Shown here one piece after another: positions 6,033-61,539 of a DNA stretch of 64,000 bases (its first letter is position 1; every line of letters starts with the position of its first letter). Location of the stretch: the IMG/VR virus record IMGVR_UViG_2866360957_000001, positions 1 through 64,000 of that record; one strand, given 5' to 3'. The notes beneath the pieces were generated by a model. The model was given only the letters and a program-made list of their open reading frames with translations, searched no databases and had not been told where the DNA came from. A program made the translations under genes and the position numbers. The stretch is from a virus (Duplodnaviria > Caudoviricetes).

Positions 6033-6358
6033 ACCTCGTGCTCGAAACTCGCGACCAGCCCAATAGGACCGTGCACGTTGGCGCGGTTGCCCTGACGCCT
6101 GCGATCGACGAGGACTACTGGGCGTACCGTGTCCGGCTCGGTGAGCGCCAGGCGATCGTGGGGTTCCCGAAGTTCGGGACCATCGGCATCGGCTTCGCCG
6201 TCGAGGAGGACTGGAACGCCAATCTCCCCTACACCTGCGACGCCGAGAGGATCTACAACCACATCGCACACAACAAGGGCGATGACGACATCAGCGGTGA
6301 GGACTGCCTGACAGCGATCCGGATGATCCAGGATGCGGTCAAGGCGGAGCGAGCGTGA
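6029..6358 (+). CDS. Hypothetical protein
   Basis: ATGA coupling. Confidence 0.7.
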   Translation: MNLVLETRDQPNRTVHVGAVALTPAIDEDYWAYRVRLGERQAIVGFPKFGTIGIGFAVEEDWNANLPYTCDAERIYNHIAHNKGDDDISGEDCLTAIRMIQDAVKAERA

Positions 6359-7407
6359 TGAGCGACCTCATCACCCCGACCGCGCGCCTCCTGGCGCCGT
6401 CCGGCCTGCCGCGTGACGAATGGCTCGACGTCCGCCGCCAAGGCATCGGCGGCTCGGACGTCGCCGCGATCCTCGGCATGGACAAGCGGCGTGGGCCGCT
6501 GCACGTCTACCTCGACAAGCGTGGTGAACTGCGCGAAGAGCGCGATGCCAAGCTCGATCGGGCTGCGCGGCGCGGTCACCGCCTCGAAGGGCTCGTGGCC
6601 GAGTTCTTCGCCGAGGAGACCGGCCGGATCGTGCTCAACACTCCCGGAACGCTCCAGCACGCCGAGCACCCGTGGATGCTCGCCAACCCTGACCGGATCA
6701 GCTTCGCCGACAGCAACTTCGCGGATCCGGCCGTACTGGAGTGCAAGAGCCGAACCTGGCGGAGCGCGCGCGCCGAGGACTGGGGTGGTGACGAGCCGCC
6801 CGATGGTCCCGCCCTCCAGGCGTATTGGTACCGCGCCGTCACCGGCTACGGCAAGGCGCACGTCGCGGGCCTGGTCGATGACGACTTCGTGCACTTCGAG
6901 CTCGCCGACGACACCGAGCTCATCGGCCACCTCGTGACGCTGGTCGCCGACTTCTGGCGCGACCATGTGGAGGCCGGCATCCCACCGGAGCCCGGCGATC
7001 TGGAGAGCACTGACGAACTGCTGGGGCGGCTGTGGGACGCCACTGCGGACTCGTTCCGCCTCTTCAATCCAGAGGAGAGCAAGGCGGCCGACGCGCTTCT
7101 CGCCCGGCGCGCCGAGGTCGTCGCTGAGCGGAGGGCGCTGGAGCGCGAACTCGGCGCGATTGAGAACAAGCTCAAGGCCCGGCTCGGTGACGCTGAGATC
7201 GCCCTCGCCCCCGGCCGAGAGCTCTACTCCTGGAAGCGCAACGGCAACTTCGCCTACAAGCGGTTCCGGCAGGCATATCCCGACCTGGCGCGCGAGTACA
7301 CCCGTACGGCCAAGGCGATCGATGGCGAGCGCTTGGCCGCGGAGCAACCAGAAATTCACCGGCGCTTTCGCGCCCGCGTCTTCCGAGTTCCAGGGGGAAC
7401 CGTATGA
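6355..7407 (+). CDS. YqaJ-like viral recombinase exonuclease (lambda-exo/RecE type)
   Basis: WLDVRRQGIGGSDVAAILG, GHRLEG, PWMLANPDR, LECKS, QAYWY. Confidence 0.93.
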   Translation: MMSDLITPTARLLAPSGLPRDEWLDVRRQGIGGSDVAAILGMDKRRGPLHVYLDKRGELREERDAKLDRAARRGHRLEGLVAEFFAEETGRIVLNTPGTLQHAEHPWMLANPDRISFADSNFADPAVLECKSRTWRSARAEDWGGDEPPDGPALQAYWYRAVTGYGKAHVAGLVDDDFVHFELADDTELIGHLVTLVADFWRDHVEAGIPPEPGDLESTDELLGRLWDATADSFRLFNPEESKAADALLARRAEVVAERRALERELGAIENKLKARLGDAEIALAPGRELYSWKRNGNFAYKRFRQAYPDLAREYTRTAKAIDGERLAAEQPEIHRRFRARVFRVPGGTV

Positions 7408-8366
7408 GCAACCTCGGCCAACGAGTGGCCAACCGCGCCCAGGGCGGTCAGCGTCGCACCGGCAACGCCGTCGAGCTCCAGAAGAAGAAGGTCGCCACCG
7501 CGCGGCAGCTCTTCCAGCAGATGCGGCCTCAGTTCGCCGTGGCGCTGCCTCAGCATGTGAGCGTTGATCGATTCCTGCGCATGGCGCTCACGGCCGTCCA
7601 GAAGACGCCGAAGCTCCTCGACTGCACGCAGGAGTCCCTTCTCGCCGCGTTGCTGGAGTCTGCCCGCCTGGGACTGGAGCCCGGAACCAAGCAGGCCGCC
7701 ATCGTGCCGTACGGCAAGACCGCCACGTTCATCGCGCAGTGGCAGGGCCTGGTGGAACTGATGTACCGCTCCGGCCAGGTCATGTCGGTCACCGCAGAGT
7801 TCATCCACGAGAACGACCCGTGGAAATACCGGATCGGCGACGGCGGCACCTTCTGGCACGAGCCCGACGTGCTTTCCGGCGAGCGCGGGCCGATCGTCCT
7901 CGCCTACGCCTACGCCGAGATCAAGGGCGGCGGCCGATCGAAGATCGTGACGCTCAATCGCGGCGAGGCCGAGTTCGTCCGGGACAGGTACAGCAAGGCG
8001 TACGCCCTCGCCGAGCAGCATCGCCGCGAGGAGCCTGACGAGTTCGCCCGCGTCCCTGACAAGGGGTGGTTTAACTCGACCTGGCACACCGAATTCGACG
8101 CGATGTGGCGTAAGAGCGCCGTCCGCCGCCTCGCGGACTGGGTGCCGCAGAGCCCGGAGCTGGTGGAGCTGTTGCAGCGCGAGAACCCGGCCGGAGAGAG
8201 CGAGCCCCCGGAGGTCGATTTCGACTTCGACGGCGAGGTCGTCTCCGAGACCGAGGAACCCTATACACCTGATGGAGACCAGGCTGGTGCGCGGTCCGAC
8301 GTTGACGAGGCCGACTGGCCCCCGGTCGTCAGGCCCGGCTCGGGAGGCGGCACCGATGCCTCGTGA
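7404..8366 (+). CDS. recT: RecT-family single-strand annealing protein
   Basis: ALPQHVSVDRFLRMALTAVQKTPKLLDCTQESLL...LGLEP...IVPY; W.TEFDAMWRKSAVRRL; acidic tail; next to exonuclease. Confidence 0.93.
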   Translation: MSNLGQRVANRAQGGQRRTGNAVELQKKKVATARQLFQQMRPQFAVALPQHVSVDRFLRMALTAVQKTPKLLDCTQESLLAALLESARLGLEPGTKQAAIVPYGKTATFIAQWQGLVELMYRSGQVMSVTAEFIHENDPWKYRIGDGGTFWHEPDVLSGERGPIVLAYAYAEIKGGGRSKIVTLNRGEAEFVRDRYSKAYALAEQHRREEPDEFARVPDKGWFNSTWHTEFDAMWRKSAVRRLADWVPQSPELVELLQRENPAGESEPPEVDFDFDGEVVSETEEPYTPDGDQAGARSDVDEADWPPVVRPGSGGGTDAS

Positions 8367-16941: not shown

Positions 16942-17153
16942 ACGTGTCTGAGGCGCGCGACGTGCAGAGGGTGCTCGCCTGGATCCTCGGCGGTGAGGTG
17001 ACCGACGAGGTCGCGATGTGTGCCGCCGGCCGCCTGGCCGCGCGGGCGCACGACCGGCTCGGCGCGGGCCCAGCCGAGGCCGCCCTTCGAGCCGAGTGGA
17101 CGCGACGGCGCCCGATGGTCGTCCGCGACTGGCCAGGGAGCGACGATGCGTAG
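16938..17153 (+). CDS. Hypothetical protein
   Basis: GTGA coupling. Confidence 0.6.
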   Translation: MNVSEARDVQRVLAWILGGEVTDEVAMCAAGRLAARAHDRLGAGPAEAALRAEWTRRRPMVVRDWPGSDDA

Positions 17154-17358
17154 ACCGCACCCTGTGGTCCAGATCCTCATGGTGCGGCGTCACAAGCTCG
17201 GGCTGCGGCAGCGTGACGTGGCTGACCGCATGGGCGTGAACCGGGTGATCATCGCCGAGTGGGAGATCGGCAAGCGCGACCCCCGCCTCAGCAACTTGGA
17301 GGCGTACGCGCATGCGCTGAACCTGCGGATCTCCTTTGAGGAGGTCGGCGATGCCTGA
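17146..17358 (+). CDS. XRE HTH protein
   Basis: RRHKLGLRQRDVADRMGVNRVIIAEWEIGKRDPRLSNL. Confidence 0.88.
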   Translation: MRRPHPVVQILMVRRHKLGLRQRDVADRMGVNRVIIAEWEIGKRDPRLSNLEAYAHALNLRISFEEVGDA

Positions 17359-19724: not shown

Positions 19725-20098
19725 AATCGCAACCGGTCAAGGTCGAGGTCGATTTGTCCACGATTGAAACGGTGTGCGCCGAGCTGCGTGAGCTGGTCCG
19801 CGAGGCCCACGGCGTCACCGGGGATCTGCGCAAGGCCGTGAAGGACGCCAGACGGACCGTGGAGTCGGACATCGCGCAGACGATGGAGGCCGAGGTGAAG
19901 CGGCAGGTCGCCGAGCTGGGCGAGGTCACCGCCGAGGCGATGCGCAACTCCGTGGCCAAGGTCGGCCGCGAGTTCGATCGATTGGAAGCGATCTTCCTTG
20001 GCGCCGACCCGCAGTCGAAACGCAAAGGGCGGCCGCCGCTGGAGGACCTCATCCGCGAGCACCTCAACTCCACCCGATCCCAGAGAGGAGACACCTGA
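19721..20098 (+). CDS. Hypothetical helical protein
   Basis: GAGGAG RBS, GTGA coupling. Confidence 0.7.
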   Translation: MKSQPVKVEVDLSTIETVCAELRELVREAHGVTGDLRKAVKDARRTVESDIAQTMEAEVKRQVAELGEVTAEAMRNSVAKVGREFDRLEAIFLGADPQSKRKGRPPLEDLIREHLNSTRSQRGDT

Positions 20099-20493
20099 TG
20101 AAGCGGAAGCACGCGCACGAGTACTCACCTGAGGAGTTTGACCGTGCCGTCACGATGATCCAGTCGGACGCGGACCTGCGCGCCGACATCGAGGCCATCA
20201 CCGGACAGAGCCTGGAGGGGAAGACCCCGCGCGAGCTGTTCGATACCTTCCGCTCGATCCAGCATGCCGCCGAGGTCCAGGCCGCCGTGGTCAACTACGG
20301 CCGGGCCCGTCAGGCCGTTCGGGACACCCGGGCCATGCTGGAGGCGGACGCGTCGGCCGAGGAGGCGCTGGGGCTCGCCCGCAAGGAGATCGAGCGCCTG
20401 GAGAAGTCCAACGAGGAACTGAAGCGGAAGAATCAGGCCCTGTCCGCCGGTCAGGGTGCGACGCCACTGCGGGTCGCTGGAGGCCGGGCGTGA
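20098..20493 (+). CDS. Hypothetical protein with C-terminal coiled coil, coupled to the Cas7-like gene
   Basis: GAGGAG RBS; LARKEIERLEKSNEELKRKNQAL heptads; GTGA overlap. Confidence 0.75.
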   Translation: MKRKHAHEYSPEEFDRAVTMIQSDADLRADIEAITGQSLEGKTPRELFDTFRSIQHAAEVQAAVVNYGRARQAVRDTRAMLEADASAEEALGLARKEIERLEKSNEELKRKNQALSAGQGATPLRVAGGRA

Positions 20494-21245
20494 GCGCGGC
20501 CGACATCTTCGGGATCGCTGAGCCGGTCGCCACGTACCGCGTGCGGCTCCAGGTGCACAGCAAGATCGTGGGGGGCGTGCCATCGAGCTCGTCCGTCATC
20601 AAGGGCTGGCTGAAGACGCGCCTCGACCTGGGCGACCGCGACCTCCAGGAGCTGGCGGAGCAGACGTTGCGCGAGCGGTTCCCGGACCGCCAGCCGACCG
20701 CCGACGCGCTCGCCGGGGCGCTCATGGAGTCGGAGGCCGCCGAGCTGTCGGTGAACGGCTTCAAGCGCTTTGGGGACGTCCTGACCTACGAGGCGCGGTG
20801 CATGAAGGCCGCGATCAAGGAAGCGATGAACTCGGCGTATCCCGGCACCGACTGGGACGGAAAGAAGGGGGCCGGTGCCCACAAGCCGAAGATCGGCCAG
20901 CCGCTGCCCGCGAGCTTCCGCAAGGGCCTGATGAGCACCGCCGCTGAGCGCGTGTTCGTGGTCGGCGATGTGCACCGCGACTACATCTCGCTCGGTGTAA
21001 GCGCGCCGAGTGGGATCGAGGAGCGGGTGAAGCACGTCAAGACCCCGCAGGGGCCTAGGTCGTCGATCGCGCGCGTGGAGTACGTCGAGTGCCCGACCTT
21101 GAGTTTCACCGTGCGCGTGCACGACGACTTCCTGTCGCGCGAGGCGTGGGGCCGGATCTGGGTTCGCCTTCAGGACATCGGGATCGGTGCCGACCGCAGT
21201 AGGAGTGATGGGCAGTTCGAGCTGATCACCTGGGAGCGGGTGTGA
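20490..21245 (+). CDS. Stand-alone Cas7/RAMP-superfamily-like protein (251 aa)
   Basis: N-terminal strand YRVRLQVHSKIVGG; LTYEARCMKAAIKEA (cf. RAMP P.IPGSS.KGA.R); thumb-like ERVKHVKTPQGPRSSIARVEYV; C-terminal Gly-rich loop GIGADRSRSDGQFEL. Confidence 0.75.
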   Translation: MSAADIFGIAEPVATYRVRLQVHSKIVGGVPSSSSVIKGWLKTRLDLGDRDLQELAEQTLRERFPDRQPTADALAGALMESEAAELSVNGFKRFGDVLTYEARCMKAAIKEAMNSAYPGTDWDGKKGAGAHKPKIGQPLPASFRKGLMSTAAERVFVVGDVHRDYISLGVSAPSGIEERVKHVKTPQGPRSSIARVEYVECPTLSFTVRVHDDFLSREAWGRIWVRLQDIGIGADRSRSDGQFELITWERV

Positions 21246-21915
21246 GGTTCCGTTCCAGCGACGCCGTATCCGACACGGCTAGCCCAACCATGCTGACAGC
21301 CCACCGTTGCTCTTCGCGGGACGACCTGCCCGGCCCTGCCTCCACGGTCCCGGCCTCACCACGCCGACACCCCAGCTCTAGTCACGCGCCCGCCGCATCG
21401 GCCCGCTTCGACTTGCCTTGCTCGCGTCTGCTCATGCCAGGCCGTCGCACGTCAGCCCAGATCGACACGTCGAGCCGCGTCAACGCCAAGCCCTGTCGCG
21501 CCCGTCCTGTCCGCGCCGACCAGCCTTGCCGGGCCAATCCGCTGCTCTCCGCACCGACTTTTCGAACCCAACCCGCCCATGTCCGGAGCCGTCCATGTCC
21601 ACCCCGTTCGACTGGCCTACCGCTACCCGAAGCCGACTGTCTCCGCGCGACTGCTCTCCCCCAGCCAGGTCCGGCCAAGGCGACATCCCCACCCAGGGCA
21701 TGCCTGCCCGACCTCCCACCTCCATCCTGCCCATGCCGAGCCCCAGCGACAGGCCGTACCCAGCCTTTCCTGGCCCGGCGACACGTCATGCCGAGTCCCG
21801 GCGACAGGCCGTACCCAGCCTTTCCTGACCCTGCGACACGTCATGCCGAGCCCTGACGGGCGCGGACCGACCCACCCCGACACGCCGATCCTCACCTCAC
21901 CCATCCGGCCCACCT
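21246..21915. ncRNA. Pentamer-periodic array (NN-RCC/NYC)n punctuated by GAC; candidate guide-RNA array; transcribed strand unknown
   Basis: e.g. GAC ct-gcc cg-gcc ct-gcc tc-cac gg-tcc cg-gcc tc-acc ac-gcc GAC (21323-21368) and GAC ca-gcc tt-gcc gg-gcc aa-tcc gc-tgc tc-tcc gc-acc GAC (21518-21558); fills the gap from the Cas7-like stop to the next RBS. Confidence 0.75.
21748..21857 (+). repeat. 55-bp tandem duplication inside the array
   Basis: GACAGGCCGTACCCAGCCTTTCCTG...GCGACACGTCATGCCGAG at 21748 and 21803. Confidence 0.9.
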
Positions 21916-21925
21916 GGAGGTGCCC

Positions 21926-22243
21926 ATGACCGACTTGCGCCAGCGGTACGCCGCGGCGATGCTCGACAACATCTATCCGCCCGAAGAGATCACCGAGCGG
22001 GCGACCTACTGTGGGCGGGTCTTCCCCGCCATAGAGCGCATTCTTGCCGTACGCGACCAAGAGGCCGAGCGGCACCGCATCGAACTGGCGGCTGTGCGCG
22101 AAGCTCAGGATCGCGCCACACGGGCCGAAGCCGCCCTTGCCCGCGCTCTGGCGGTCTGCGGCCAGGCTCTGGCCACACCCGACGCCCCGGATCGCTGGTT
22201 TGTCGCCGCGCAGGTGAAGGCCGCCATCGAGGGGCGGCCGTGA
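21926..22243 (+). CDS. Hypothetical protein
   Basis: GGAGG RBS. Confidence 0.65.
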   Translation: MTDLRQRYAAAMLDNIYPPEEITERATYCGRVFPAIERILAVRDQEAERHRIELAAVREAQDRATRAEAALARALAVCGQALATPDAPDRWFVAAQVKAAIEGRP

Positions 22244-22560
22244 TCGCGCTGATCGTGCTGGGCGCGCTGGTCGTCTACGCGGCGGGATTCATGGCCACAG
22301 CCCGTGTGATGGCCGCTGTGGACCGCCGCGCGCATATGGAGCCTGACGAGGGTTTGATCACGCTGGTGGCCGCCGGTTGGCCCATCTTTGCTCCCGTCTG
22401 TCTCGTGCTCTTGATCGGAAGGCTGCTGTACCGCCTGGCCACGCGCGATGCCGGGATTCCTCGCGCCGAACGCCGCCGCCGGCAACTTGCCGAGCGACAG
22501 TCGGAGATCGCCGACCTGGAGCGCTGGCACGCCGCGTTCGACCACCGGGAGGATGGATGA
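22240..22560 (+). CDS. Membrane protein
   Basis: Two hydrophobic helices, GTGA coupling. Confidence 0.65.
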   Translation: MIALIVLGALVVYAAGFMATARVMAAVDRRAHMEPDEGLITLVAAGWPIFAPVCLVLLIGRLLYRLATRDAGIPRAERRRRQLAERQSEIADLERWHAAFDHREDG

Positions 22561-33040: not shown

Positions 33041-33394
33041 ATGGGCGCCGGTAACGCCAAGCTGGCCTTCGGGCACTACGCCGGTCGCGTCCCGCCGAAC
33101 TCCATGCTGGCCCTCGTCTTCATGGCCTTGACCGCGATGGACAAGGACGATCCGCCGCTCTTCTGGGGCGGCCACCAGTCCATCGCGGTCAACGTCCTCG
33201 GGCGGCGCGGCGAATATACCGACGCCGACGCGCGCGCCGTGCGGCGGCTGATCACCCCTCTGTTCCAGGTGGGGGCGATCGAGGTGTACCAGCACGCGTC
33301 GGTGCGGCGTCAAGGGTCCAGCACCGTTTGTTATCGGCTCAATCTGCATCCCGACGTAGGACGGTTTCCGTCCTATGAGCAGTCGGTCACATAG
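33041..33394 (+). CDS. Short winged-helix replication-initiator-like protein
   Basis: LVFMALTA.D...FWGG...RAVRRLITPL..VGAIE...YRL; ends inside a repeat cluster. Confidence 0.55.
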   Translation: MGAGNAKLAFGHYAGRVPPNSMLALVFMALTAMDKDDPPLFWGGHQSIAVNVLGRRGEYTDADARAVRRLITPLFQVGAIEVYQHASVRRQGSSTVCYRLNLHPDVGRFPSYEQSVT

Positions 33395-33518
33395 GACGGA
33401 AACCGTCCTATGAGGAGCCATTCACGTAGGACGGTTTCCGTCCTTCACGTAGGACGGAATGTGGTCGTCACGTAGGACGGAAAGTGTCCGTACACAGGAC
33501 GGAAACCGTCCTACAGAG
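33354..33518. repeat. Six iteron-like repeats, core AGGACGG, four fully palindromic (AGGACGG-WWW-CCGTCCT)
   Basis: Cores at 33358, 33393, 33428, 33451, 33474, 33496. Confidence 0.9.
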
Positions 33519-33669
33519 GAGTACGGCGGAGGATGAGGACCCTATTGAAGAAGGAAGGGGCGAACTTGGGAACCGACGTGCAGGTATCGCGCGCGCGAAG
33601 CTCTCCCGACGAGGAATCCCATCTACGGACTCTCGGGTGTCCGCAGAACGCCGGGCATCGCCCAGCCGG

Positions 33670-39054: not shown

Positions 39055-39314
39055 CGCGCAGCGTGCGCGTGGACCTGGTGGCATCGGTCCGTGGGGACCT
39101 GCGGCGGCTGGGCGTCGATGCGAAGAGCACGCTAGCGATGGCCGCGCTGGACATCGCGGTACGGCTCGGCGTGGACGGCGTGCGCCCGACAGCGGCGGCG
39201 ATGCTGCACAAGGAGCTGCGCGCGACGCTGGAGGCGCTGGAGCGGGTCGCCGCTGGGCAGCCGGCCGAGGACGCGATCGACGAGCTGCGGACCCGTCGGG
39301 CGAACCGTGCCTGA
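39051..39314 (+). CDS. Terminase small subunit
   Basis: KELRATL...DAIDELRTRR; directly upstream of TerL. Confidence 0.75.
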   Translation: MTRSVRVDLVASVRGDLRRLGVDAKSTLAMAALDIAVRLGVDGVRPTAAAMLHKELRATLEALERVAAGQPAEDAIDELRTRRANRA

Positions 39315-40833
39315 GCTGCTCGGCGATCAGACACCGCGGATCCGGTGGGTGCCGGAGTCGTACCGGTCATCGGGGGCTGACGCGACGGAGCTCGCCGAGA
39401 CGGCCGGGCTGCTGCTGGATCCGTGGCAACGCCTGGTGCTCGATGACGCCCTGGGGGAGCGGCGTGACGGCCGGTGGACTTCGTTCGAGACCGGCCTGGT
39501 CGTGGCGCGTCAGAACGGCAAGGGCGCGATCTTCGAGGCCCGGGTGCTCGCTGGCCTGTTCCTGTTCGACGAGCGGCTGATCATGTACTCGTGCCACGAG
39601 TTCAAGAGTGCGCAGGAGTTCTTCCGGCGGATCCGGCTCCTGATCGACGGCAAGGACGAGTTCCGGCGGCGGGTCCGGAAGATCGTGACGGCGCACGGCG
39701 ATGAGGGCATCGAGCTCACGACGGGCCAGCGTCTCCGGGTCATCGCCCGCTCGACCGGCAGCGGCCGGGGCTTCAGTGGCGACCTCAACATCTGGGATGA
39801 GGCGTTCAACCTCCCTTCGACCGCCGTTGACGCGCAGATGCCTACCATGTCCGCGCGGCCCAACCCGCAGGCGTGGTACGGATCATCGGCCGCAGACAAG
39901 ACCATTGCGCCGTGCGAGCAACTCGCTGCTGTGCGACGCCGGGGCATCGCGGGCGACGATCCCGCGCTGACGTATCTGGAATGGAGCATCGACCCGCACA
40001 CCGAGCAGTGCGCGCGCGACGCCGAGGGCACTATCACCTGCATCGACCACGACGACCGCGACGACCCGGCAAGCTGGGCGAAGGCGAATCCCAGCCTCGG
40101 CATCCGGATCTCGGTCGAGCACGTTCAGCGCGAGTACAACTCGATGTCGCCGACGGGCTTCGACCGCGAGCGCCTATCGGTGGGGAACTGGCCGACCGAC
40201 AAGGCGAGTCAGTGGACGGTCATCCCCGAGGCGAAGTGGCGGGCGGTCGCCGACGAGCAGTCGGAGGCCGAGGGCCGGGTGGCGTTCGCGATCCACGTCA
40301 GCCCGGACCGGAGCTGGGCGGCGATCGCCACGGCGGGCCGCCGCGCTGACGGGCTGCTGCACCTGGAGGTCGTGGACTACCGGCCGGGCACTCGGTGGGT
40401 ACCGGACCGCGCCGCGCAGCTTCAAAAGCGGTGGGATCCGGTCGCCTGGGTGGTGGACGCGGGCGGCCCCGCGGGGTCGCTGATCGCCGATCTTGAGGCG
40501 GTGCGGATCGAGGATCCGCAGACCCGCAAGGTCACCACCCTGGAGATCACCAAGCCGACGGCGCGCGAGGTGGCGCACGCGTTCGGGCAGCTCCTGGACG
40601 CTGTGATGCCCGAAGAGGGCGACCCGGGCGCACGTGTCCGGCCACACCCAGCTCTCGACGCCGCGGTGGCCGGGGCTGCGACGCGGAAGCTCGGCACCGC
40701 GCACGCGTGGGACGCCCTGACCACGGCGGTGGACATCTCGTCGCTGGTCGCGGTGACCAGCGCCGCGTGGGGGTTTGCGACAAAAGGCCATGTCGAGGAC
40801 GAGGCACCTGAGCCGTGGGTGCAGTTCGGGTGA
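39307..40833 (+). CDS. terL: Terminase large subunit
   Basis: LDPWQ, VARQNGKG (Walker A), RGFSGDLNIWDEA (Walker B), WAKANPSLG. Confidence 0.95.
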   Translation: MPELLGDQTPRIRWVPESYRSSGADATELAETAGLLLDPWQRLVLDDALGERRDGRWTSFETGLVVARQNGKGAIFEARVLAGLFLFDERLIMYSCHEFKSAQEFFRRIRLLIDGKDEFRRRVRKIVTAHGDEGIELTTGQRLRVIARSTGSGRGFSGDLNIWDEAFNLPSTAVDAQMPTMSARPNPQAWYGSSAADKTIAPCEQLAAVRRRGIAGDDPALTYLEWSIDPHTEQCARDAEGTITCIDHDDRDDPASWAKANPSLGIRISVEHVQREYNSMSPTGFDRERLSVGNWPTDKASQWTVIPEAKWRAVADEQSEAEGRVAFAIHVSPDRSWAAIATAGRRADGLLHLEVVDYRPGTRWVPDRAAQLQKRWDPVAWVVDAGGPAGSLIADLEAVRIEDPQTRKVTTLEITKPTAREVAHAFGQLLDAVMPEEGDPGARVRPHPALDAAVAGAATRKLGTAHAWDALTTAVDISSLVAVTSAAWGFATKGHVEDEAPEPWVQFG

Positions 40834-41080: not shown

Positions 41081-41304
41081 GCGAGCGACAGGCCCTGGAG
41101 GGCATCGTCGAGGGCCTGGTCGTGCGGTCTGGGGACACGCTGATTTTGCACCTGCCTGCCGACATGACGGCGGCGGACATGCAGCGGATCGCGGAGAACG
41201 TGAAGGATGGCCTGTGCCAGAAACTGCCTGACGTCGAGATCCTGATGGTGGCGGGCATCGAGCGGATCGCGGTGTACCGGCCGGGCGAGGACGCGCCGGC
41301 CTGA
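41077..41304 (+). CDS. Hypothetical protein
   Basis: GGAGG RBS, coupled at both ends. Confidence 0.6.
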   Translation: MSERQALEGIVEGLVVRSGDTLILHLPADMTAADMQRIAENVKDGLCQKLPDVEILMVAGIERIAVYRPGEDAPA

Positions 41305-42734
41305 TGGGCCTCCTGGAGCGGGTCTCGGCGCGGCACGCCGAGCGGTTTCGGCGACCCGCCGCTGAGAATCGGTTCGGCTGGGACGACTACCTCAATCTGT
41401 TCGAGCGCAACCCGTTCGGGCTGGGCTGGTTCCAGACGATCACCGGCTCCCAGGAGCGGATCGAGGGCCACTTCGAGGGCATCGTCAACCTCGGCTACAA
41501 GCGAAGCGGCGTGGTGTTCGCGTGCATCCTCGCGCGCCTCCTGGTCTTCAGCGAGGCGCGGTTCCAGTGGCGCGGCTTCAACCGCGGTCGGCCGGGGGCG
41601 CTGTTCGGCGCCCCGGAGTTGGCGTTGCTGGAGCGGCCGTGGCCGGGGGCGACGACCGGTGACCTGCTGGCCCGGATGGAGCAGGACTCGACGCTCGCGG
41701 GCGGCTTTTTCGCGACCCGGCGGGGCGGCCGGGGCGGGCAGGACCGGATCGTCCGGATGCGCCCGGACTGGGTGACCATCGTTCTCGGCTCGTACGAGGA
41801 CCCGGACTTGCAGGCGTTCGACCTGGACGCCGAGCTGATCGGCTACATCTACCAGCCGCCGGGCGGGCAGGCGGAGATCCTGCTGCCCGAGGAAGTCTGC
41901 CACTACGCGCCGGTGCCGGACCCGATCGCCTCCTACCGCGGCATGTCGCTGCTTCAGTCGGTGATCCGCGACATCGAGGGCGACCAGGCGGCCACCACCC
42001 ACAAGCTGCGCTTTTTCGAGCAGGGGGCGACCCCCAACATGGTGGTCACGATGGACTCGGCGGTGACGCCTGAGGCGTTCGCTCGCTTTAAGGCCGTCAT
42101 GGAGGCCGGTCACGCCGGGGCGCTCAACGCCTACAAGACCTTGTACCTGGGCGGCGGCGCCGACGTGAAGACCGTCGGCAACAGCTTCGAGCAGATGAGT
42201 TACAAGGCCATCCAGGCGCTGGGGGAGACGCGCGTGGCCGCGGCCATGGGCGTCCCGCCGGTCATCGTCGGCCTGTCCGAGGGGCTCTCATCTGCCACGT
42301 ACTCCAACTATTCGCAGGCCAGACGGCGTTTCGGCGACGGTACGTTGCGCCCGCTGTGGCGTAACGCGGCCGGGTCGCTGGCCAACCTGCTGCCGCCCCG
42401 GCCGGGCGCGGAGCTCTGGTACGACGACCGCGATGTGTCCTTCTTGCGGGAGGACCAGAAGGACGCGGCGCAGATCTTCTCCATCCAGGCGTCTACGATC
42501 GCGACGCTCGTCCGCGAAGGTTTTACACCCGAGTCGGCGACGGCGGCCTGCGCCGCCCAGGATTCCAGCCTGCTGGTGCACACCGGCCTGCTCAGCGTGC
42601 AGCTTCAGCCGCCCGGTACGAAATTCAACCAGCCGAACGGCTCCGGCCAGTCCGACGAGACCGAAGACGACCCCGAGGACGATGCCGCAGACGACGAAGG
42701 CACCGGCCCCGACGAGGAGGAAGAGCAGCCGTGA
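41304..42734 (+). CDS. HK97-family portal protein
   Basis: VFACI, RGMSLL, FFEQGATP, AAAMGVPPVIVG, TYSNY. Confidence 0.95.
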   Translation: MGLLERVSARHAERFRRPAAENRFGWDDYLNLFERNPFGLGWFQTITGSQERIEGHFEGIVNLGYKRSGVVFACILARLLVFSEARFQWRGFNRGRPGALFGAPELALLERPWPGATTGDLLARMEQDSTLAGGFFATRRGGRGGQDRIVRMRPDWVTIVLGSYEDPDLQAFDLDAELIGYIYQPPGGQAEILLPEEVCHYAPVPDPIASYRGMSLLQSVIRDIEGDQAATTHKLRFFEQGATPNMVVTMDSAVTPEAFARFKAVMEAGHAGALNAYKTLYLGGGADVKTVGNSFEQMSYKAIQALGETRVAAAMGVPPVIVGLSEGLSSATYSNYSQARRRFGDGTLRPLWRNAAGSLANLLPPRPGAELWYDDRDVSFLREDQKDAAQIFSIQASTIATLVREGFTPESATAACAAQDSSLLVHTGLLSVQLQPPGTKFNQPNGSGQSDETEDDPEDDAADDEGTGPDEEEEQP

Positions 42735-56775: not shown

Positions 56776-56993
56776 CCGAGTGGATGGCCTATGAGCGCCT
56801 TACCGGGGCGCTCGGCCAGCAGCGTGACGACATCCTCGCCGCACGCACCGCGTTCTACGTCGTCTCGGCGCTGAGCAGTAGCAAGACCAACAAGCCGAAG
56901 CTCTCCGACTTCCTCCCCAACTGGGGCCTGATCAGGGAGGAAGCCGGTGGCGACGATCAAGAATCTGCTGATCAGGCTGGGGGTGGTCGCTGA
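56670..56993 (+). CDS. Tail assembly chaperone GT extension by programmed -1 frameshift
   Basis: Slippery G GGA AAC at 56670-56676; -1 frame reads KLRARPERAFAFRLAGHLGYTVAELLARISSRELTEWMAY... Confidence 0.85.
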   Translation, partial: GKLRARPERAFAFRLAGHLGYTVAELLARISSRELTEWMAYERLTGALGQQRDDILAARTAFYVVSALSSSKTNKPKLSDFLPNWGLIREEAGGDDQESADQAGGGR

Positions 56994-59900
56994 CGTCGAT
57001 CGCGGCGTCAACGAGACGACCCGCGGTCTGGAGCGTGTCGCCCGCCAGGCCGACGCCACCGACCGGAAACTCCGCGGCTTGGGCGGCGGCTTCGACTTCC
57101 TGAGCGGCGCGGCGGGCCGCGCTGGCACTGGCCTCCGTTCGGCGGCGACGGCGTTCGCCGGCCTCGGGTCCGCGGCCGGGGGCGCGGCGGGAGGACTTGG
57201 CTCACTCGCGTCACAGGTCGGGCGGATCGGGGGTCTGCTGGGTGGCCTCGGTTCCATCGCGGGCCGCGCCGCGGGCGCGCTCGCCGGATTAGGTTCGGCG
57301 GCGGCCCGCATCGGTGCCGCCGCCGCGAGCGCCGGGGTGGCGATCGGCGCGCTGGCGGCTGCGGCATCGGCGGCGACGACGGGGGTTGCGGGCCTGGTCG
57401 CGGCGCTGGCTCCGGCGGCCGGCGCGCTGGCGGCGCTGCCTGGGGCCGCGCTGCTGTGGAGCGCGGCTCTGGGCACGTTGAAGCTGGGCCTCAGCGGGAT
57501 CGCGGATGGCTTCGCCGCGGCGATCAGTGGCGACTACCTGAAATTCATGGAGGGCACCAAAGACCTCAGTCAGGCGGCCTCTGAGGTGGCCTACGAGCTC
57601 TTCCAGATGGCGCCGGCGTTCCAGCGGTTGAGGGACACGGCTCAGGACGGGATCTTCGGTCCGCTGGTCGGCCAGATGTGGTCGCTGTTGCCGTTGTTGA
57701 ACGTCTTGAACGCTGGCATTGGCGAGGTGGCCGCCCAGTTCGGCCAGGCGGCGCTGGCCATCTTGGAGTTCATCAGGGCCGCCGAGACCGTCCGCGCGGT
57801 CGAGATCGTTTTTCGCGCGACCCGCGATGCCATCGCGGCTCTGATACCGGCGATCCGGCCGGTGCTGGACGGGCTGCGTGATCTCGGCGTGGTCGGCGCG
57901 GTCTGGCTGTCGGGGCTGGCGCCCGGGATCGCGGACGTCGCCAGCCGCTTTGGTCAGTGGATGTCCGCGATCGCGGCATCAGGACAGGCCCTGGCCTGGA
58001 TGGACGGTGCGCTGGTCGTGCTGCGCCAGCTCGGCGCGCTCCTGGCCGATCTCGGCGGGATCGTCGTCGGCGTCCTCCGCGCGGTCCAGGCGTCGGGGAA
58101 CGGGGTGCTCGGCGTCCTGGGCCAGCTCGTTGATGCGGCGCACGCGTGGGTGGACTCGACAGCCGGCCAAGAGGCGCTGGTCGCCGTGTTCAAGGCATTG
58201 GCGCAGATCGGAGCCACGCTCGTCCCGGTCGTCACCCTGATCGCAGCCGGAATCGCGCAGCTTGCGCCGTTGGTTGCTGAGCTGGCGGTCGCGGTCGGCC
58301 CGCTGCTCACCGCGGCGATCTCCGGGCTCATCCCCGCGCTGGCCGCCGTCGCACCGGGGGTCCTCGCGCTGGTCGGCGCCTTGACGGCCGCGGTGCAGAT
58401 GATCGGCCCTGCCTTGGCCCCGCTGGGAGCCGCGCTCGCCAGCGGCCTCGCCTCAGCTGCACCCCTGCTGGTCACGCTCGGAGCCGCGGTCACCGCACTG
58501 CTGCCCCACCTCCAGGCGTTCATCGTCGCCGTCGGCAGCGTGTTGAGCCAGCTCAGACCCGCTGTATCCGCTCTGCTGCCCGCCGTGGCCACTGCATTGG
58601 ACGCGATCGGGGAGGCGCTGGCCATCGCGGCGCGGGCGGCGCTGCCGCTCGCGCAGGCCGTGGCGGGGATCGTGTCGGCCGCCGCGCCGCTGGTCTCCCT
58701 GCTCGCGCAGGTCGCGGTGGCCGCCGTGTCGGCTTTCGGGCCGGTGGTCGTCGCCGCAGCGAACGGGCTGGCCGGAGCGATCTCCGCTCTGGCGCCCGGG
58801 GTCCTGGCGGTGATCGACGGGATCGCGGCCGGAGCGCGGGCGATCGTGCCGGCGCTGGCTCCGCTCGGGCAGGTACTGGGCGGCATCCTGTCGGCCGCCG
58901 GGCCCCTGCTCGCCCAGATCGGCGGGGCGATCGCCGCCCTGCTGCCCGGCATCCAGGCCCTGGGGAGCGCCCTGGCGGCCGGGATCGGCGCGATCGGCCC
59001 GGCCCTGGCTCCGATCGCGGGCGCCTTGACCAGCGTGGCCACAGCAGCCGCCCCGCTCGTCCCGCTGCTGGCGGAGGTGGCCGTTCTCCTGATCGGCAGT
59101 CTGGCCTCCGGCATCCAGACGATCATGCCTGCGGTCGTCGCGCTCGGCCAGGGGATCGCCGCCCTGCTGCCCGGAGCGCAGGCCCTCCTGTCGGGGCTGG
59201 CGACCGGGATCGCTGCTCTCAGCCCTGCCCTCCAGCCACTCGGGGAGGCGATCAGCGGCGTCCTCGTCGCGCTCGCGCCGCTTCTGCCGATCGCCGGGGA
59301 GCTCGCAGCGGTGATCACCACGGCGCTCACCGGCGCGATCCAGACCCTGACGCCCGCCTTGGTGCCCGTGGTGGACGGGATCGGCCTGCTCGCAGCCGCG
59401 ATCGGGCCGCTAATCGGGCAGGTGCTGCAACTCGCCGCCCAATTCCTGAGCGCGCTGCTACCCGCCTTGGCGCCACTTCTGCCGACACTGGGCCAGCTCG
59501 CCCAGGCCGCCCTTCCCGTCCTAGTGGCGATCGTCCAGGCCGGCACCCCGCTGCTCGGCCAGCTCAGCGACATCCTGCGTGCGGTCCTCCAGGCGATGTC
59601 GCCACTGCTGCCGGTGATCGGCCAAGTAGCCCGCATCCTGGGCGAAGCACTGATCGGCGCGATCAGCACACTCCTGGAGGCCGTGCGCCCGCTCATCCCG
59701 CTGATCTCGGATCTCGCGAACACGGTCGGAGCACAGCTACTGTCTGTCGCGGTCGCGGCGGCGCCGGTGCTCACTCAGCTTGCCGAGGTGGTCGCCGGGC
59801 TCGTCACCGCGGCCATGCCGCTGCTGCCGATCTTGGTCAAGATTGCAGCGGTGATCGGGACCACCGTGCTCACGGTCCTGTCCACCCTGCTCAAGGCGAT

Positions 59901-61539
59901 CGTTCCGCTGCTGCCGTCGATCGGCCGGCTCGCCGAAGTGGTCGGCAACTTGCTCCTCATGGCCGTCCAGACCGTCGCGCCGTTCATCATCAGGATCGCG
60001 GAGGCGATCGCCCAGCTCCTCCCGATCTTGACCCCGGTGATCGACCTGGTGGCCAAGGTCGCAGGGCAGATCGGCGAGATCCTGGTGACAGCGGTCGGCC
60101 AGCTCCTCAACGCTCTGACGCCACTACTGCCTGTGATCGTCGATGTCGTCACCACGCTCGGGACGAGCCTGACCGACGCCCTGACCGCCCTTGCACCCCT
60201 GATCATCAAGGTCGTCGAGGCATTCGTCGGATTGCTGCCCATCGTGACGCCTTTGATTCAAATTGTGGCCGATTTGGTGCAGGCTTTCATGCCGCTCATC
60301 CAGGCGATTCTGCCCGTGATCGTCGATCTCGCAAAGGCGCTATCGCCATTGATCGAGACGGTCGCCAAACTTTTCGGCGACCTGCTGAACGCCGTGATGC
60401 CGCTTGTCAAATCGCTTGCGGACCTGATCGTCGCGATCCTGCCTATCCTTGACCCGCTGATCCAGCTAATCAATACAATTCTCCCGTTCCTTATCGACCT
60501 CGTCGTGAAGCTCGCGGACTTCCTGGTCAAGATCCTGGTTCCGGCTTTCGAGCTTATCGTGAACATCGTGAAATGGGTCGTTGATGTCGTCGCCGGTGCA
60601 TTCAGATGGCTCTATGATGTTCTGGTCGGAAATTCGATCATTCCCGATATGATCACGGCGATAAAGAGCTGGTTCGACAAGGCCCTCCAGTGGATCACCT
60701 CGATCGTCACCGGTATCCGGGACGTCATCGTCCGGGTGGTCACGGCGATCTCGGACTGGTGGGGCCGCACTTGGGAATCCATCGTCGCATTCGTAACGCG
60801 GACCTGGGATCGCATTAAAACAGCGGTCAGCAACGCGATCGAAAACGTGCGGACGATCATCTCGACCATCATGGGCAATGTCCGGGATCGATGGTCTGAG
60901 GCGTGGGAGCGTGTGACCGGCGCGCTCGGCCAGGCGTGGGAGGCGATCCGGCGCTCCGTGTCGGACGGCATAAATACCGTGCTGAACTTCTTTCGTAATC
61001 TTCCGGGCCAGATCGCCGGGGCTCTGGGCAATCTCGGTGGAACTCTATTCAATGCGGGCCGTGACCTCATTAATGGGCTCTGGAATGGGCTTGTCTCGAT
61101 GTGGGAATGGTTCAAGAACGCCATTTACAACTTCTTTTCCTCGATCATGCCGCAATGGGTCAAGGACGCGCTGGGAATCAAGTCGCCCTCGAAGCTGTTC
61201 GCGGAGATCGGGAAGATGCTGCCCGCCGGGCTCGTCGCCGGTATGGACGGCGCGCTCGGCATGGTCACCGCGGCGGCCGACCGCATGGCCGCCGCGGCGA
61301 CGGTCGGCATCACCGGGACCATGGCCATGGCCGCCGCGACACCCGCCACGATGTTCGCCGGCGCCGTCCCAGCGCCCGTGGCGGTCGGCGGCGGCCGGGC
61401 AGGGGGGAACGTCATCGAGAACCTCAATCTGACCGTGAACGGCGCTGACCTCGATTTCCGGAACGTCAGCGGCACGGCCCGGAAGCTCCTCATCGAGGTC
61501 CGCGAGGGCCTGCGGCAGCTCGACAAGGAGCAGGAGTGA
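56947..61539 (+). CDS. Tape measure protein (1530 aa)
   Basis: Long Ala/Leu helical repeats, Trp-periodic C-terminal region, LGIKSPSKLF. Confidence 0.95.
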   Translation: MATIKNLLIRLGVVADVDRGVNETTRGLERVARQADATDRKLRGLGGGFDFLSGAAGRAGTGLRSAATAFAGLGSAAGGAAGGLGSLASQVGRIGGLLGGLGSIAGRAAGALAGLGSAAARIGAAAASAGVAIGALAAAASAATTGVAGLVAALAPAAGALAALPGAALLWSAALGTLKLGLSGIADGFAAAISGDYLKFMEGTKDLSQAASEVAYELFQMAPAFQRLRDTAQDGIFGPLVGQMWSLLPLLNVLNAGIGEVAAQFGQAALAILEFIRAAETVRAVEIVFRATRDAIAALIPAIRPVLDGLRDLGVVGAVWLSGLAPGIADVASRFGQWMSAIAASGQALAWMDGALVVLRQLGALLADLGGIVVGVLRAVQASGNGVLGVLGQLVDAAHAWVDSTAGQEALVAVFKALAQIGATLVPVVTLIAAGIAQLAPLVAELAVAVGPLLTAAISGLIPALAAVAPGVLALVGALTAAVQMIGPALAPLGAALASGLASAAPLLVTLGAAVTALLPHLQAFIVAVGSVLSQLRPAVSALLPAVATALDAIGEALAIAARAALPLAQAVAGIVSAAAPLVSLLAQVAVAAVSAFGPVVVAAANGLAGAISALAPGVLAVIDGIAAGARAIVPALAPLGQVLGGILSAAGPLLAQIGGAIAALLPGIQALGSALAAGIGAIGPALAPIAGALTSVATAAAPLVPLLAEVAVLLIGSLASGIQTIMPAVVALGQGIAALLPGAQALLSGLATGIAALSPALQPLGEAISGVLVALAPLLPIAGELAAVITTALTGAIQTLTPALVPVVDGIGLLAAAIGPLIGQVLQLAAQFLSALLPALAPLLPTLGQLAQAALPVLVAIVQAGTPLLGQLSDILRAVLQAMSPLLPVIGQVARILGEALIGAISTLLEAVRPLIPLISDLANTVGAQLLSVAVAAAPVLTQLAEVVAGLVTAAMPLLPILVKIAAVIGTTVLTVLSTLLKAIVPLLPSIGRLAEVVGNLLLMAVQTVAPFIIRIAEAIAQLLPILTPVIDLVAKVAGQIGEILVTAVGQLLNALTPLLPVIVDVVTTLGTSLTDALTALAPLIIKVVEAFVGLLPIVTPLIQIVADLVQAFMPLIQAILPVIVDLAKALSPLIETVAKLFGDLLNAVMPLVKSLADLIVAILPILDPLIQLINTILPFLIDLVVKLADFLVKILVPAFELIVNIVKWVVDVVAGAFRWLYDVLVGNSIIPDMITAIKSWFDKALQWITSIVTGIRDVIVRVVTAISDWWGRTWESIVAFVTRTWDRIKTAVSNAIENVRTIISTIMGNVRDRWSEAWERVTGALGQAWEAIRRSVSDGINTVLNFFRNLPGQIAGALGNLGGTLFNAGRDLINGLWNGLVSMWEWFKNAIYNFFSSIMPQWVKDALGIKSPSKLFAEIGKMLPAGLVAGMDGALGMVTAAADRMAAAATVGITGTMAMAAATPATMFAGAVPAPVAVGGGRAGGNVIENLNLTVNGADLDFRNVSGTARKLLIEVREGLRQLDKEQE

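What the first reader, a model, noticed from the sequence alone, without database searches (positions are those of the whole stretch)
20490..21915. Candidate phage-encoded RNA-guided system: lone Cas7/RAMP-like gene plus a pentamer-coded array, with no CRISPR repeats and no other cas genes
Seen: a 251-aa ORF with RAMP-like motifs in the expected order (first strand, ..KAAIKEA helix, beta-hairpin thumb, C-terminal GIGADRSRSDGQF loop). From the first base after its stop up to the next RBS lies about 670 nt with 5-nt periodicity, in a region where nearly all other genes overlap. Established: Cas7/Csm3-type RAMPs polymerise along a guide RNA with a fixed nucleotide step per subunit. Inference: each pentamer binds one subunit, the constant triplet is the protein handle, and the variable dinucleotides spell a gapped target, probably in competing phages or elements. 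With no nuclease nearby, repression by binding is more likely than cleavage. I recall recent reports of viral Cas7-like systems with alternating GGY/NN guide RNAs (called VIPR) but cannot verify this here. In this locus GGY-NN is on the strand opposite the gene, so it is either an antisense-transcribed array or a CC-type variant.
Basis: partly seen in the sequence, partly recalled or inferred. Interest (0 to 1): 0.96.

Follow-up and report, generated by a model that had tools for sequence, protein, structure and literature searches.

The report
Prophage VIPR system with antisense guide array
A prophage in an actinobacterial genome carries a VIPR system, the CRISPR-like RNA-guided DNA-silencing kind first described in 2026: a small Cas7-like protein gene followed by an array of five-letter-repeat guides, one of which spells a conserved motif of a bacterial anti-phage helicase.

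Summary

- **Protein:** the 251-aa ORF (20490-21245, +) folds as a Cas7/Csm3-type RAMP. Its family matches the phage SUSP1 Vipr family by profile (hhalign 94.8%, E 5e-8).
- **Array:** the 675 nt behind it are non-coding. On the strand opposite the gene they parse into about 115 GGY-NN pentamers in about 15 blocks separated by a 3-nt GTC (score 155.5 against 63.4±7.4 for shuffles).
- **Conservation:** the gene-plus-antisense-array layout recurs in 14 of 14 genome loci, in one Microcystis phage and in 14 of 16 viral contigs.
- **Candidate target:** one 10-pentamer guide (21609-21559) is conserved in four arrays. Read by the published 1-nt-skip rule it spells helicase motif VI, (L/I)EQRxGRIHR, of SNF2 helicases such as HmaA of the Hma defence system.

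Not shown: expression, which strand is transcribed, how the array is processed, and the targets of the other guides. I rate it a new member of a known kind, of moderate interest.

The parts
20098..20493 (+). 131-aa gene overlapping the start of vipr by 4 nt; candidate accessory (vap-like) gene
   Evidence: A homologue lies directly upstream of the vipr homologue in 11 of 15 loci (tblastn E<=1e-4); no other neighbour is conserved in more than 2. The AF2 model (pLDDT 81.8) has two short helices and one 75-residue helix. No Pfam hit reaches its cut-off. PHROGs and PADLOC give nothing. Foldseek finds no PDB match at E<=1e-3.
20490..21245 (+). vipr: 251-aa Cas7-like RAMP protein
   Evidence: AF2 pLDDT 84.3, pTM 0.74. 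All Foldseek top rows are Cas7, Csm3, Cmr4 or Cas7-11; best E 1.7e-6. The 23 best VIA rows are all CRISPR RAMPs, Z 7.3-10.5. hhalign to the SUSP1 Vipr family: 94.8%, E 5.2e-8.
20799..20825 (+). Helix 1 of the RRM core (CMKAAIKEA)
   Evidence: Lies in helix 102-116 of the model. Aligned by hhalign to the SUSP1 helix that holds E71/M72.
21012..21089 (+). Beta-hairpin 'thumb' (residues 175-200)
   Evidence: Strands 175-185 and 188-200 in the model. Aligned by hhalign to the SUSP1 stretch around R138.
21180..21218 (+). Glycine-rich loop GIGADRSRSDGQF
   Evidence: G231, G233, R236, R238, D240 and G241 are invariant in 36 sequences. Aligned to the SUSP1 G-loop GVGDWRPRFGRF.
21258..21283 (-). Conserved hairpin element at the vipr-proximal end of the array, which is its 3' end if the minus strand is transcribed
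   Evidence: The motif GCTAGCCGY-loop-RCGGCGTCGC is in the window and in 13 of 14 genome loci, and in 13 of 16 viral loci. In window plus genome loci the fifth stem pair is T-A in 11, C-G in 2 and G-C in 1, and is broken in none.
21284..21911 (-). vrRNA array: about 115 GGY-NN pentamers in about 15 blocks separated by GTC
   Evidence: GTC is the best of 64 possible 3-nt spacers (155.5 against 128.5 for the next).
21556..21609 (-). 10-pentamer guide with GTC on both sides; under the 1-nt-skip rule it spells SNF2 helicase motif VI
   Evidence: Conserved in L001, L005 and L187. It matches hmaA at 18 of 20 positions with skip 1, against 15, 14 and 15 with skip 0, 2 and 3. The window copy carries one extra base after the sixth pentamer.
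21732..21853 (.). 55-nt tandem duplication (2.2 copies, 92% matches) inside the array: two near-identical guides
   Evidence: The two guides differ at one NN position.

Best explanation
This is a prophage-borne VIPR system (Viral Interference Programmable Repeat) made of three conserved parts: a small helical accessory-like gene (20098-20493), the Vipr RAMP gene (20490-21245), and a guide array (about 21284-21911) that ends in one conserved hairpin (21258-21283).

Shown here:
- The protein has the Cas7/Csm3 RAMP fold, and its family is related by profile to the experimentally studied SUSP1 Vipr.
- The array has the published GGY-NN grammar with near-random NN.
- Gene and array travel together across divergent (pro)phages.

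Inferred from the published mechanism: one Vipr protomer binds each pentamer, hides the GGY and presents the NN. The filament then pairs with double-stranded DNA, skipping every third base, and represses transcription without cutting.

Inferred from this locus:
- The RNA is made from the strand opposite vipr, that is, convergent transcription. The same 5'-GGY-NN-3' motif and the repeats-then-hairpin order appear only on that strand.
- Each GTC-bounded block of 5 to 14 pentamers is one guide.
- One guide family is aimed at helicase motif VI of SNF2 helicases such as HmaA of the Hma defence system, carried by other strains or mobile elements. This would make part of the array an anti-defence or anti-element weapon.
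For: Fold: AF2 pLDDT 84.3. The listed Foldseek rows are all Cas7-family chains, best E 1.7e-6. The 23 best VIA rows are all CRISPR RAMPs, with Csm3 9g9a_D at Z 10.5, rmsd 5.0, 155 aligned.

Kinship with Vipr: hhalign of 56 family members against 32 SUSP1-family members gives 94.8%, E 5.2e-8 over 137 columns that include helix 1, thumb and G-loop. The SUSP1 protein I used carries H17, E71, M72, R138, D177, W178 and R179 as named in paper 2.

Array grammar: the score is 155.5 against shuffles at 63.4 +/- 7.4, and GTC is the best spacer of 64. As a positive control, the same parser picks exactly the two VIPR intergenic regions in 50 kb of SUSP1.

Pooled arrays: in 16 arrays (1931 pentamers) G1 is 86%, G2 71% and Y3 72%, while N4 and N5 are near uniform.

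Conserved layout: 14 of 14 genome loci, a Microcystis phage and 14 of 16 IMG/VR loci. Some IMG/VR loci may be the same prophages as genome loci.

Phage context: RecE, RecT, large terminase and portal in the window.

Guide and target:
- The unit 21609-21559 keeps 17-19 of 20 NN positions but only 17-25 of 30 triplet positions among four arrays. The two dinucleotides that differ sit at the two codons that vary in the target motif.
- In family genomes it hits 15 of 151, against 2 of 151 for the control. 9 of the 12 fetched loci are HmaA-type.
- The gene is HmaA at 1425 bits, next to HmaC at 893 bits.
- Skip 1 gives 18 of 20; skip 0, 2 and 3 give 15, 14 and 15; 100 NN-order shuffles reach at most 17.
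- The L187 copy spells LEQRFGRIHR in all 10 dinucleotides. Its best hit in the six Hma loci searched was 19 of 20.

No self-target: the own genome has no exact core hit and no true HmaA.
Against: - No expression data: no RNA run could be listed, so the strand, the ends and the processing of the RNA are all inferred.
- No sigma-70-like promoter was found on either strand of 20900-22400. The next plus-strand gene starts right at the array's distal end, so a minus-strand promoter would have to lie inside that gene.
- The window's array is degenerate. Only 47 of 115 pentamers are exact GGY and 20 stray bases break the register.
- The window's own copy of the SNF2 guide has an extra base and 2 mismatches to hmaA, so it may be decayed.
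- The hhalign match covers only the C-terminal 137 columns. A narrower profile against the single SUSP1 sequence gave nothing.
- In the hhalign alignment the SUSP1 G-contacting D177 and W178 fall on A234 and D235, so GG recognition is not confirmed residue by residue.
- Only one guide family has a candidate target. The other window guides showed nothing in the own genome, the fetched loci or the Hma loci, and the two that were scanned showed nothing in the viral collection.
- Earlier notes of this scan say that part of a similar target claim on other DNA fell when it was checked.
Confidence: 0.85

Rival explanations
1. CC-type variant: the array is transcribed with vipr on the plus strand as part of the long rightward operon, and this Vipr clade binds NN-RCC units instead of GGY-NN.
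For: All genes from 676 to about 25131 are on the plus strand and tightly packed, so plus-strand read-through is likely. The next gene's ribosome-binding site abuts the array. No minus-strand promoter was found. Non-canonical fixed triplets exist in other VIPR clades (passages of 10.64898/2026.10.21.760802). The SUSP1 G-contacting residues are not conserved in the hhalign alignment.
Against: Read 5' to 3', the exact published motif (GG, then a pyrimidine, then NN) appears only on the minus strand, in all 16 pooled arrays. A CC binder would have to have evolved the precise complement, including purine for pyrimidine and the reversed order. The conserved hairpin lies 3' of the repeats only on the minus strand, as the tail does in SUSP1. 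GC-rich hairpins between the vipr stop and the array in several loci could end both convergent transcripts (read by eye).
Confidence: 0.1
2. Decayed or idle system: a VIPR locus by descent, but the window's array is eroding and no longer yields working guides.
For: Only 47 of 115 pentamers are exact GGY and there are 20 register-breaking bases. The score per length is lower than in relatives: 155.5 over 675 nt here, against 325.5 over 1133 nt in L007. The SNF2 guide has an extra base that is absent from the three other copies.
Against: The vipr ORF is intact, with GC3 0.92 and all family-invariant residues. The preprint itself notes frequent internal degeneracy of vrRNAs (Methods). NN positions of the shared guide are kept better than the triplets. 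GTC punctuation is intact at 14 sites.
Confidence: 0.15
3. A DNA-level element rather than a guide RNA: the G-rich period-5 strand acts as protein-binding iterons, a G-quadruplex-prone tract or a recombination substrate.
For: No RNA evidence is available. GG every 5 nt on one strand could form G-quadruplexes (my inference, not tested).
Against: It always sits next to a RAMP protein related to an RNA-binding Vipr. The NN positions are near random, as in guides. One unit spells a protein motif only under the published RNA-DNA pairing rule.
Confidence: 0.03

Closest known systems
Type II VIPR of Escherichia phage SUSP1 and a Pseudomonas fulva prophage (bioRxiv 10.64898/2026.04.26.720920 and 10.64898/2026.04.26.720927)
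   Same: A lone RAMP protein with thumb and G-loop, a small accessory gene, and non-coding GGY-NN pentamer guides with variable NN. It is carried by a phage, has no CRISPR array and no nuclease, and a 1-nt-skip, codon-like target fits one guide.
   Different: Vipr here is 251 aa against 195 aa. The similarity shows only at profile level. In SUSP1 the guides are co-directional with vipr, have 15 uninterrupted pentamers, and each ends in its own tail of about 40 nt. Here the GGY strand is opposite to vipr, the blocks are 5-14 pentamers separated only by GTC, and there is a single hairpin element at one end. The accessory gene lies upstream and shows no recognised DNA-binding fold.
'Staggered vrRNA arrays' of the same preprint (legend of fig. 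S18)
   Same: Guides abut one another without long spacers; the end of one marks the start of the next.
   Different: I saw only the legend. The figure, the VIPR type it belongs to and the supplementary tables were not available. I therefore cannot say whether GTC punctuation, the 3-nt register shift or the antisense orientation are what is drawn there. The text says this architecture was not among those confirmed by sRNA-seq.
CRISPR class 1 backbone RAMPs (Csm3, Cmr4, type VII Cas7, Cas7-11 domains)
   Same: The same fold: Z 9-10.5, with the RRM core, thumb hairpin and C-terminal glycine loop.
   Different: Sequence identity is 6-17%. There is no cas operon, no CRISPR repeats, the step is 5 nt rather than 6 nt, and the guides are not acquired spacers.
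Phage-encoded CRISPR-Cas of Vibrio phage ICP1 aimed at the host's PLE element (recalled; no call)
   Same: A phage carries an RNA-guided system directed at a host-resident anti-phage element.
   Different: That is a full type I-F CRISPR-Cas that cuts DNA. Here the mode is presumed silencing, and the target (hmaA) is only predicted.

Membership tests
VIPR system (Vipr + vrRNA) | Vipr protein with the RAMP fold: RRM core, thumb, glycine-rich loop | tested here: met
   AF2 model pLDDT 84.3. Best Foldseek hit is type VII Cas7 8z4l_F, E 1.7e-6. Best VIA hit is Csm3 9g9a_D, Z 10.5, rmsd 5.0, 155 aligned, and the 23 best rows are all CRISPR RAMPs.
VIPR system (Vipr + vrRNA) | Homology to an experimentally studied Vipr (SUSP1) | tested here: met
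   hhalign of A3 against A2: 94.8%, E 5.2e-8, 137 columns. The narrower A1 against the single SUSP1 sequence gave no match. Whether the preprint's 2,664 PSI-BLAST proteins include this clade could not be checked, because the supplements are closed.
VIPR system (Vipr + vrRNA) | Adjacent non-coding tandem YNNGG / GGY-NN pentamers, at least 4 units | tested here: met
   115 pentamers, with runs of up to 8 uninterrupted. Score 155.5 against shuffles at 63.4 +/- 7.4.
VIPR system (Vipr + vrRNA) | Conserved triplet, hypervariable NN | tested here: met
   Pooled over 1931 pentamers: G1 86%, G2 71%, Y3 72%. N4 and N5 each have all four bases at 21-31% in a 69% G+C genome.
VIPR system (Vipr + vrRNA) | Invariable structured 3' tail after each repeat tract | tested here: inconclusive
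   There is no tail per guide. One conserved hairpin element sits at the array's 3' end on the minus strand, in the window and in 13 of 14 genome loci, with 3 compensatory changes in one stem pair. No Rfam family or ribozyme was found.
VIPR system (Vipr + vrRNA) | Minimal locus with an accessory vap gene, and no cas genes or CRISPR array | tested here: met
   A conserved 131-aa upstream gene in 11 of 15 loci. No cas among 10 neighbours. No CRISPR-like repeat. Identity with vap1-6 is not testable here, because the sequences are in closed supplements.
VIPR system (Vipr + vrRNA) | Viral or proviral context | tested here: met
   RecE, RecT, large terminase and portal in the window. Relatives lie in IMG/VR contigs and in a Microcystis phage.
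VIPR system (Vipr + vrRNA) | Targets follow the 1-nt-skip rule | tested here: met
   Met for one guide family only: 18 of 20 with skip 1 against 15, 14 and 15 with skip 0, 2 and 3, with a shuffle maximum of 17. The other 11 window guides tested gave z <= 1.4.
VIPR system (Vipr + vrRNA) | vrRNAs are expressed and co-purify with Vipr | not testable with these tools
   No RNA run could be listed.
CRISPR-Cas effector (Cas7 as part of a cas operon) | Neighbouring cas genes and a CRISPR repeat-spacer array | tested here: not met
   Pfam, PHROGs and PADLOC give no hit for the protein itself.

The most novel reading that the evidence does not exclude
This Streptosporangiaceae prophage clade uses a distinct VIPR architecture: an antisense, tail-less array in which a 3-nt GTC resets the register between short guides. 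It also deploys at least one guide family as an RNA-guided anti-defence weapon. That guide spells the first two bases of each codon of helicase motif VI, (L/I)EQRxGRIHR, of SNF2 helicases such as HmaA of the Hma defence system. Sister arrays carry versions tuned to different variants of the two variable residues.
Probability: 0.35. Interest if true: 0.75.

Novelty: new member of a known kind. Interest (0 to 1): 0.5.

Why it matters
VIPR was described only in 2026, and experiments so far cover enterobacterial and Pseudomonas systems.

This locus adds a well-conserved actinobacterial prophage clade: about 285 close homologues and 918 clusters at profile level. Its guide array is laid out differently from the studied type II.

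If the motif VI guide works, phages would be using programmable silencing against a host or mobile-element defence helicase, at a site that cannot easily mutate away. That would extend the published 'phage against satellite or prophage' picture to anti-defence, and it is directly testable with a reporter.

The GTC-bounded blocks also offer a simple rule for calling guide boundaries in such arrays.

Tried and rejected
- **RNA evidence:** no RNA holder was listed for 20490-22243.
- **Promoter and terminator scan of 20900-22400:** 0 promoter-like sites and 1 terminator-like site outside the array.
- **Rfam on 20400-22400 at E<=1:** 0 matches, so no hammerhead or other known RNA.
- **Sequence searches with the protein:** Pfam, PHROGs and PADLOC gave nothing. 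The PDB sequence search gave only chance rows at E>0.7.
- **A1 profile against the single SUSP1 Vipr:** no match. The broader profiles then matched.
- **Self-targets:** under skip 0-3, no guide of at least 7 pentamers has an exact match in the own genome apart from the array itself. Skip 1 was not enriched in the own genome plus fetched loci for 45 guides of at least 8 pentamers: 0 exact and 6 one-mismatch hits, against 3, 0 and 9 for the other skips.
- **A wasted search:** the 17-pentamer pattern from L001 found 0 of 401 family genomes at up to 3 mismatches. I later saw that this 'guide' is an artefact, two blocks fused by a 3-nt deletion, so that blank means nothing.
- **Two other window guides** (21463-21424 and 21365-21326) scanned in the viral collection gave 17 and 6 exact hits with no shared protein context.
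- **Sixty distinct clean guides from 29 arrays against six Hma loci:** only the motif VI guide copies stand out (z 6.9 and 4.9). A pair of related guides from L194 and L198 hit one site in a TrwC relaxase gene at 17 and 16 of 20 (z 3.4 and 1.6). This is a weak lead that I did not follow.
- **Accessory gene:** the protein atlas gave no hit at 0.9 or above, and Foldseek gave no PDB match at E<=1e-3.
- **Other period-5 blips** near 54000 and 9000 do not parse as arrays.
- **Rejected outright:** chance or coding origin of the periodicity.
- **Not seen:** supplementary tables and figures of the preprints were closed. The VIPR type of this clade, whether it is in the published set, and what fig. S18 draws remain unknown. 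My searches of the third preprint for antisense, opposite strand, convergent, staggered, processing and Actino found 0 places. In the first preprint 'antisense' occurs only for target strands and 'Actino' not at all.
Full report
**1. The observation**

The window is 69% G+C DNA in which a long run of small plus-strand genes overlap or abut. The ORF at 20490-21245 (251 aa, GC3 0.92) is followed by 675 nt without a credible gene. The period-3 G+C signal there is 0.198 against a window mean of 0.829.

This stretch has the strongest period-5 signal of the whole window:
- Lag-5 autocorrelation is 0.413.
- Local period-5 power of C is 0.553 against a window mean of 0.227 (sd 0.059), and 0 of 1000 shuffles reach it.

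Read on the minus strand, it consists of GGY-NN pentamers. I scored it with a small grammar: pentamers, a 3-nt spacer, and a penalty for stray bases.
- The minus strand scores 155.5 and the plus strand -1.5.
- 300 dinucleotide shuffles give 63.4 +/- 7.4, with a maximum of 88.5.
- No other place in the 64 kb comes close.

As a positive control, the same parser run on 50 kb of phage SUSP1 picks exactly the two intergenic regions that flank its vipr-vap pair.

**2. The protein**

Sequence libraries give nothing for it.
- **Model:** an AlphaFold2 model from 36 homologues has pLDDT 84.3 and pTM 0.74.
- **Foldseek against the PDB:** every listed row is a Cas7-family chain (type VII Cas7, Csm3, Cmr4 or Cas7-11), best E 1.7e-6.
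- **Independent all-against-all aligner:** the 23 best rows are all CRISPR RAMPs, Z 7.3 to 10.5.
they map onto strand 1, helix 1, a beta-hairpin thumb and the C-terminal glycine loop.

**3. What is known**

VIPR systems were reported in 2026. I read the Results and Methods of 10.64898/2026.04.26.720920. Of 10.64898/2026.04.26.720927 I read the abstract and one section. Of 10.64898/2026.10.15.759431 I read the abstract and outline. Of 10.64898/2026.10.21.760802 I read passages only.

The published system is a lone RAMP protein (Vipr), usually with one accessory gene, and vrRNAs of 9-16 YNNGG repeats followed by a tail. One protomer binds each repeat. The NN bases pair with double-stranded DNA while every third base is skipped. 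The outcome is transcriptional silencing of rival elements.

I located the SUSP1 locus in KT454805.2. Its 195-aa protein carries the residues named in the structural preprint. A profile of 56 diverse members of the window's family matches a profile of 32 SUSP1-family members at 94.8%, E 5.2e-8, over helix 1, thumb and G-loop. The protein therefore belongs to the Vipr superfamily, which is large: 918 clusters at E<=1e-3.

**4. Conservation of the module**

Close homologues are all unnamed proteins of Streptosporangiaceae and metagenomes.
- **Genome loci:** in 14 of 14 loci (49-90% identity) there is a single high-scoring array. It is always directly downstream of the gene and always GGY on the opposite strand.
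- **Phage and viral contigs:** the same holds for Microcystis phage Mae-JY09 at 35% identity. It also holds for 14 of 16 IMG/VR contigs, with 2 unclear; some of these may duplicate genome loci.
- **Neighbours:** the 131-aa upstream gene is kept in 11 of 15 loci, while other neighbours are not. It is all-helical and has no recognisable fold match.
- **Context:** the window is a prophage, with RecE, RecT, large terminase and portal.

**5. Anatomy of the array**

- **Composition:** pooled over 16 arrays (1931 pentamers), G1 is 86%, G2 71% and Y3 72%, while N4 and N5 are near uniform.
- **GTC punctuation:** the register shifts by 3 nt at a recurring GTC. GTC is by far the best of the 64 possible spacers. 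The logo over 185 sites is GG-C-WW-GTC-GG, with 99% G at positions -5 and +3. GTC-to-GTC lengths cluster at 28, 33, 38 and 43 nt, that is 5n+3.
- **No per-guide tail:** there is no 40-nt tail per guide as in SUSP1.
- **Conserved hairpin:** one conserved element, GCTAGCCGY-loop-RCGGCGTCGC, lies between the vipr stop and the array in the window and in 13 of 14 genome loci. One stem pair changes T-A to C-G or G-C without ever breaking.
- **Relation to print:** this layout differs from the studied type II. It may correspond to the 'staggered arrays' mentioned in the preprint, of which I could read only the legend.
- **State of the window's copy:** it is rather degenerate, with 47 of 115 pentamers exact GGY and 20 stray bases. 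It contains a recent 55-nt duplication.

**6. Which strand**

This is not shown. I favour minus-strand RNA at about 0.8 to 0.85, for three reasons:
- The published motif, in its 5'-to-3' order, appears only on that strand in every locus.
- The hairpin then follows the repeats, as the tail does in SUSP1.
- GC-rich hairpins between the vipr stop and the array in several loci could end two convergent transcripts (read by eye).

Against this, no promoter was found, and the next gene begins where the array ends.

**7. A candidate target**

One block (21609-21559, GTC on both sides, 10 pentamers) recurs in L001, L005 and L187.
- **Conservation:** among the four copies, NN positions are 17-19 of 20 identical while triplet positions are only 17-25 of 30 identical.
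- **What it spells:** removing the triplets and inserting one free base per unit gives, on the complementary strand, the codon series (L/F/I/M)-E-Q-R-x-G-R-I-H-R.
- **Viral collection:** 54 of them sit in the context WNP...EQRxGRIHRxGQ, which is helicase motif VI of SNF2-type helicases. The backward control has 8 hits.
- **Family genomes:** in 151 genomes of the family it hits 15, against 2 for the tool's control. 9 of the 12 fetched places read HLMVNYDLPWNPNR(I/L)EQR(F/M)GRIHRIGQ.
- **The gene:** it is HmaA (PADLOC, 1425 bits) beside HmaC (893 bits), with a 937-aa ORF between them. In two loci a relaxase or a serine recombinase lies nearby. Other viral hits are HmaA-like, PLD-helicase or generic SNF2 helicases.
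- **Match of the window's guide:** it matches hmaA at 18 of 20 positions with skip 1, against 15, 14 and 15 with other skips. 100 shuffles of NN order reach at most 17.
- **Match of the sister copies:** the L187 copy spells LEQRFGRIHR in all 10 dinucleotides. Its best hit in the six Hma loci searched was 19 of 20. The L005 copy spells (I/M)EQR(I/M)GRIHR and has 5 exact 20-of-20 viral hits.
- **Where the copies differ:** the two dinucleotides that differ between copies fall on the two residues that vary in the motif.
- **No self-target:** the host genome has no exact core match and no true HmaA.

I read this as a real guide-target relation for the clade (about 0.55). I am less sure that the window's own copy, with its extra base, still works (about 0.35). 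Earlier notes of this scan report similar leads and warn that part of one such claim fell when checked, so I hold it as a lead. No target was found for the other guides.

**8. Verdict**

This is a new member of a published kind, found many times by this scan on other DNA. Three features are worth a note:
- the antisense, GTC-punctuated array;
- the single conserved end hairpin;
- the guide that spells an SNF2 defence-helicase motif.

Interest 0.5.

Noticed in passing
window 33354-33520: A cluster of short direct repeats of 22-35 nt (2.4-3.2 copies) built around a palindrome-like core. It lies in a gene-poor stretch between a minus-strand and a plus-strand gene, and could be an operator or other regulatory region of the prophage.
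   Followed up: no
window 6355-8366: A RecE-like exonuclease and RecT-like annealing protein pair (PHROGs E 8e-76 and 5e-66). Large terminase is at 39307-40833, portal at 41304-42734, and a 1530-aa ORF at 56947-61539 is probably the tape measure. The window is largely one prophage; no tRNA gene was found in it.
   Followed up: partly
window 21732-21853: A 55-nt tandem duplication inside the guide array gives two guides that differ at one NN position. Arrays may grow by unit duplication followed by divergence.
   Followed up: partly
L194 4388-4339 and L198 4813-4764 against L158 about 3192: Two related 10-pentamer guides from sister arrays match the same site in a TrwC relaxase gene next to an Hma system at 17 and 16 of 20 positions (z 3.4 and 1.6). 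This is a weak hint that conjugative elements are also targets.
   Followed up: no
L001 5757-6036: In the closest relative (Vipr 90% identical), about 280 nt lie between the vipr stop and the conserved hairpin and array. This stretch is absent from the window.
   Followed up: no
window 17020-17358: A 112-aa protein with a helix-turn-helix match (PADLOC HTH_VI, E 3e-8), about 3 kb upstream of vipr. It is possibly a phage regulator.
   Followed up: no
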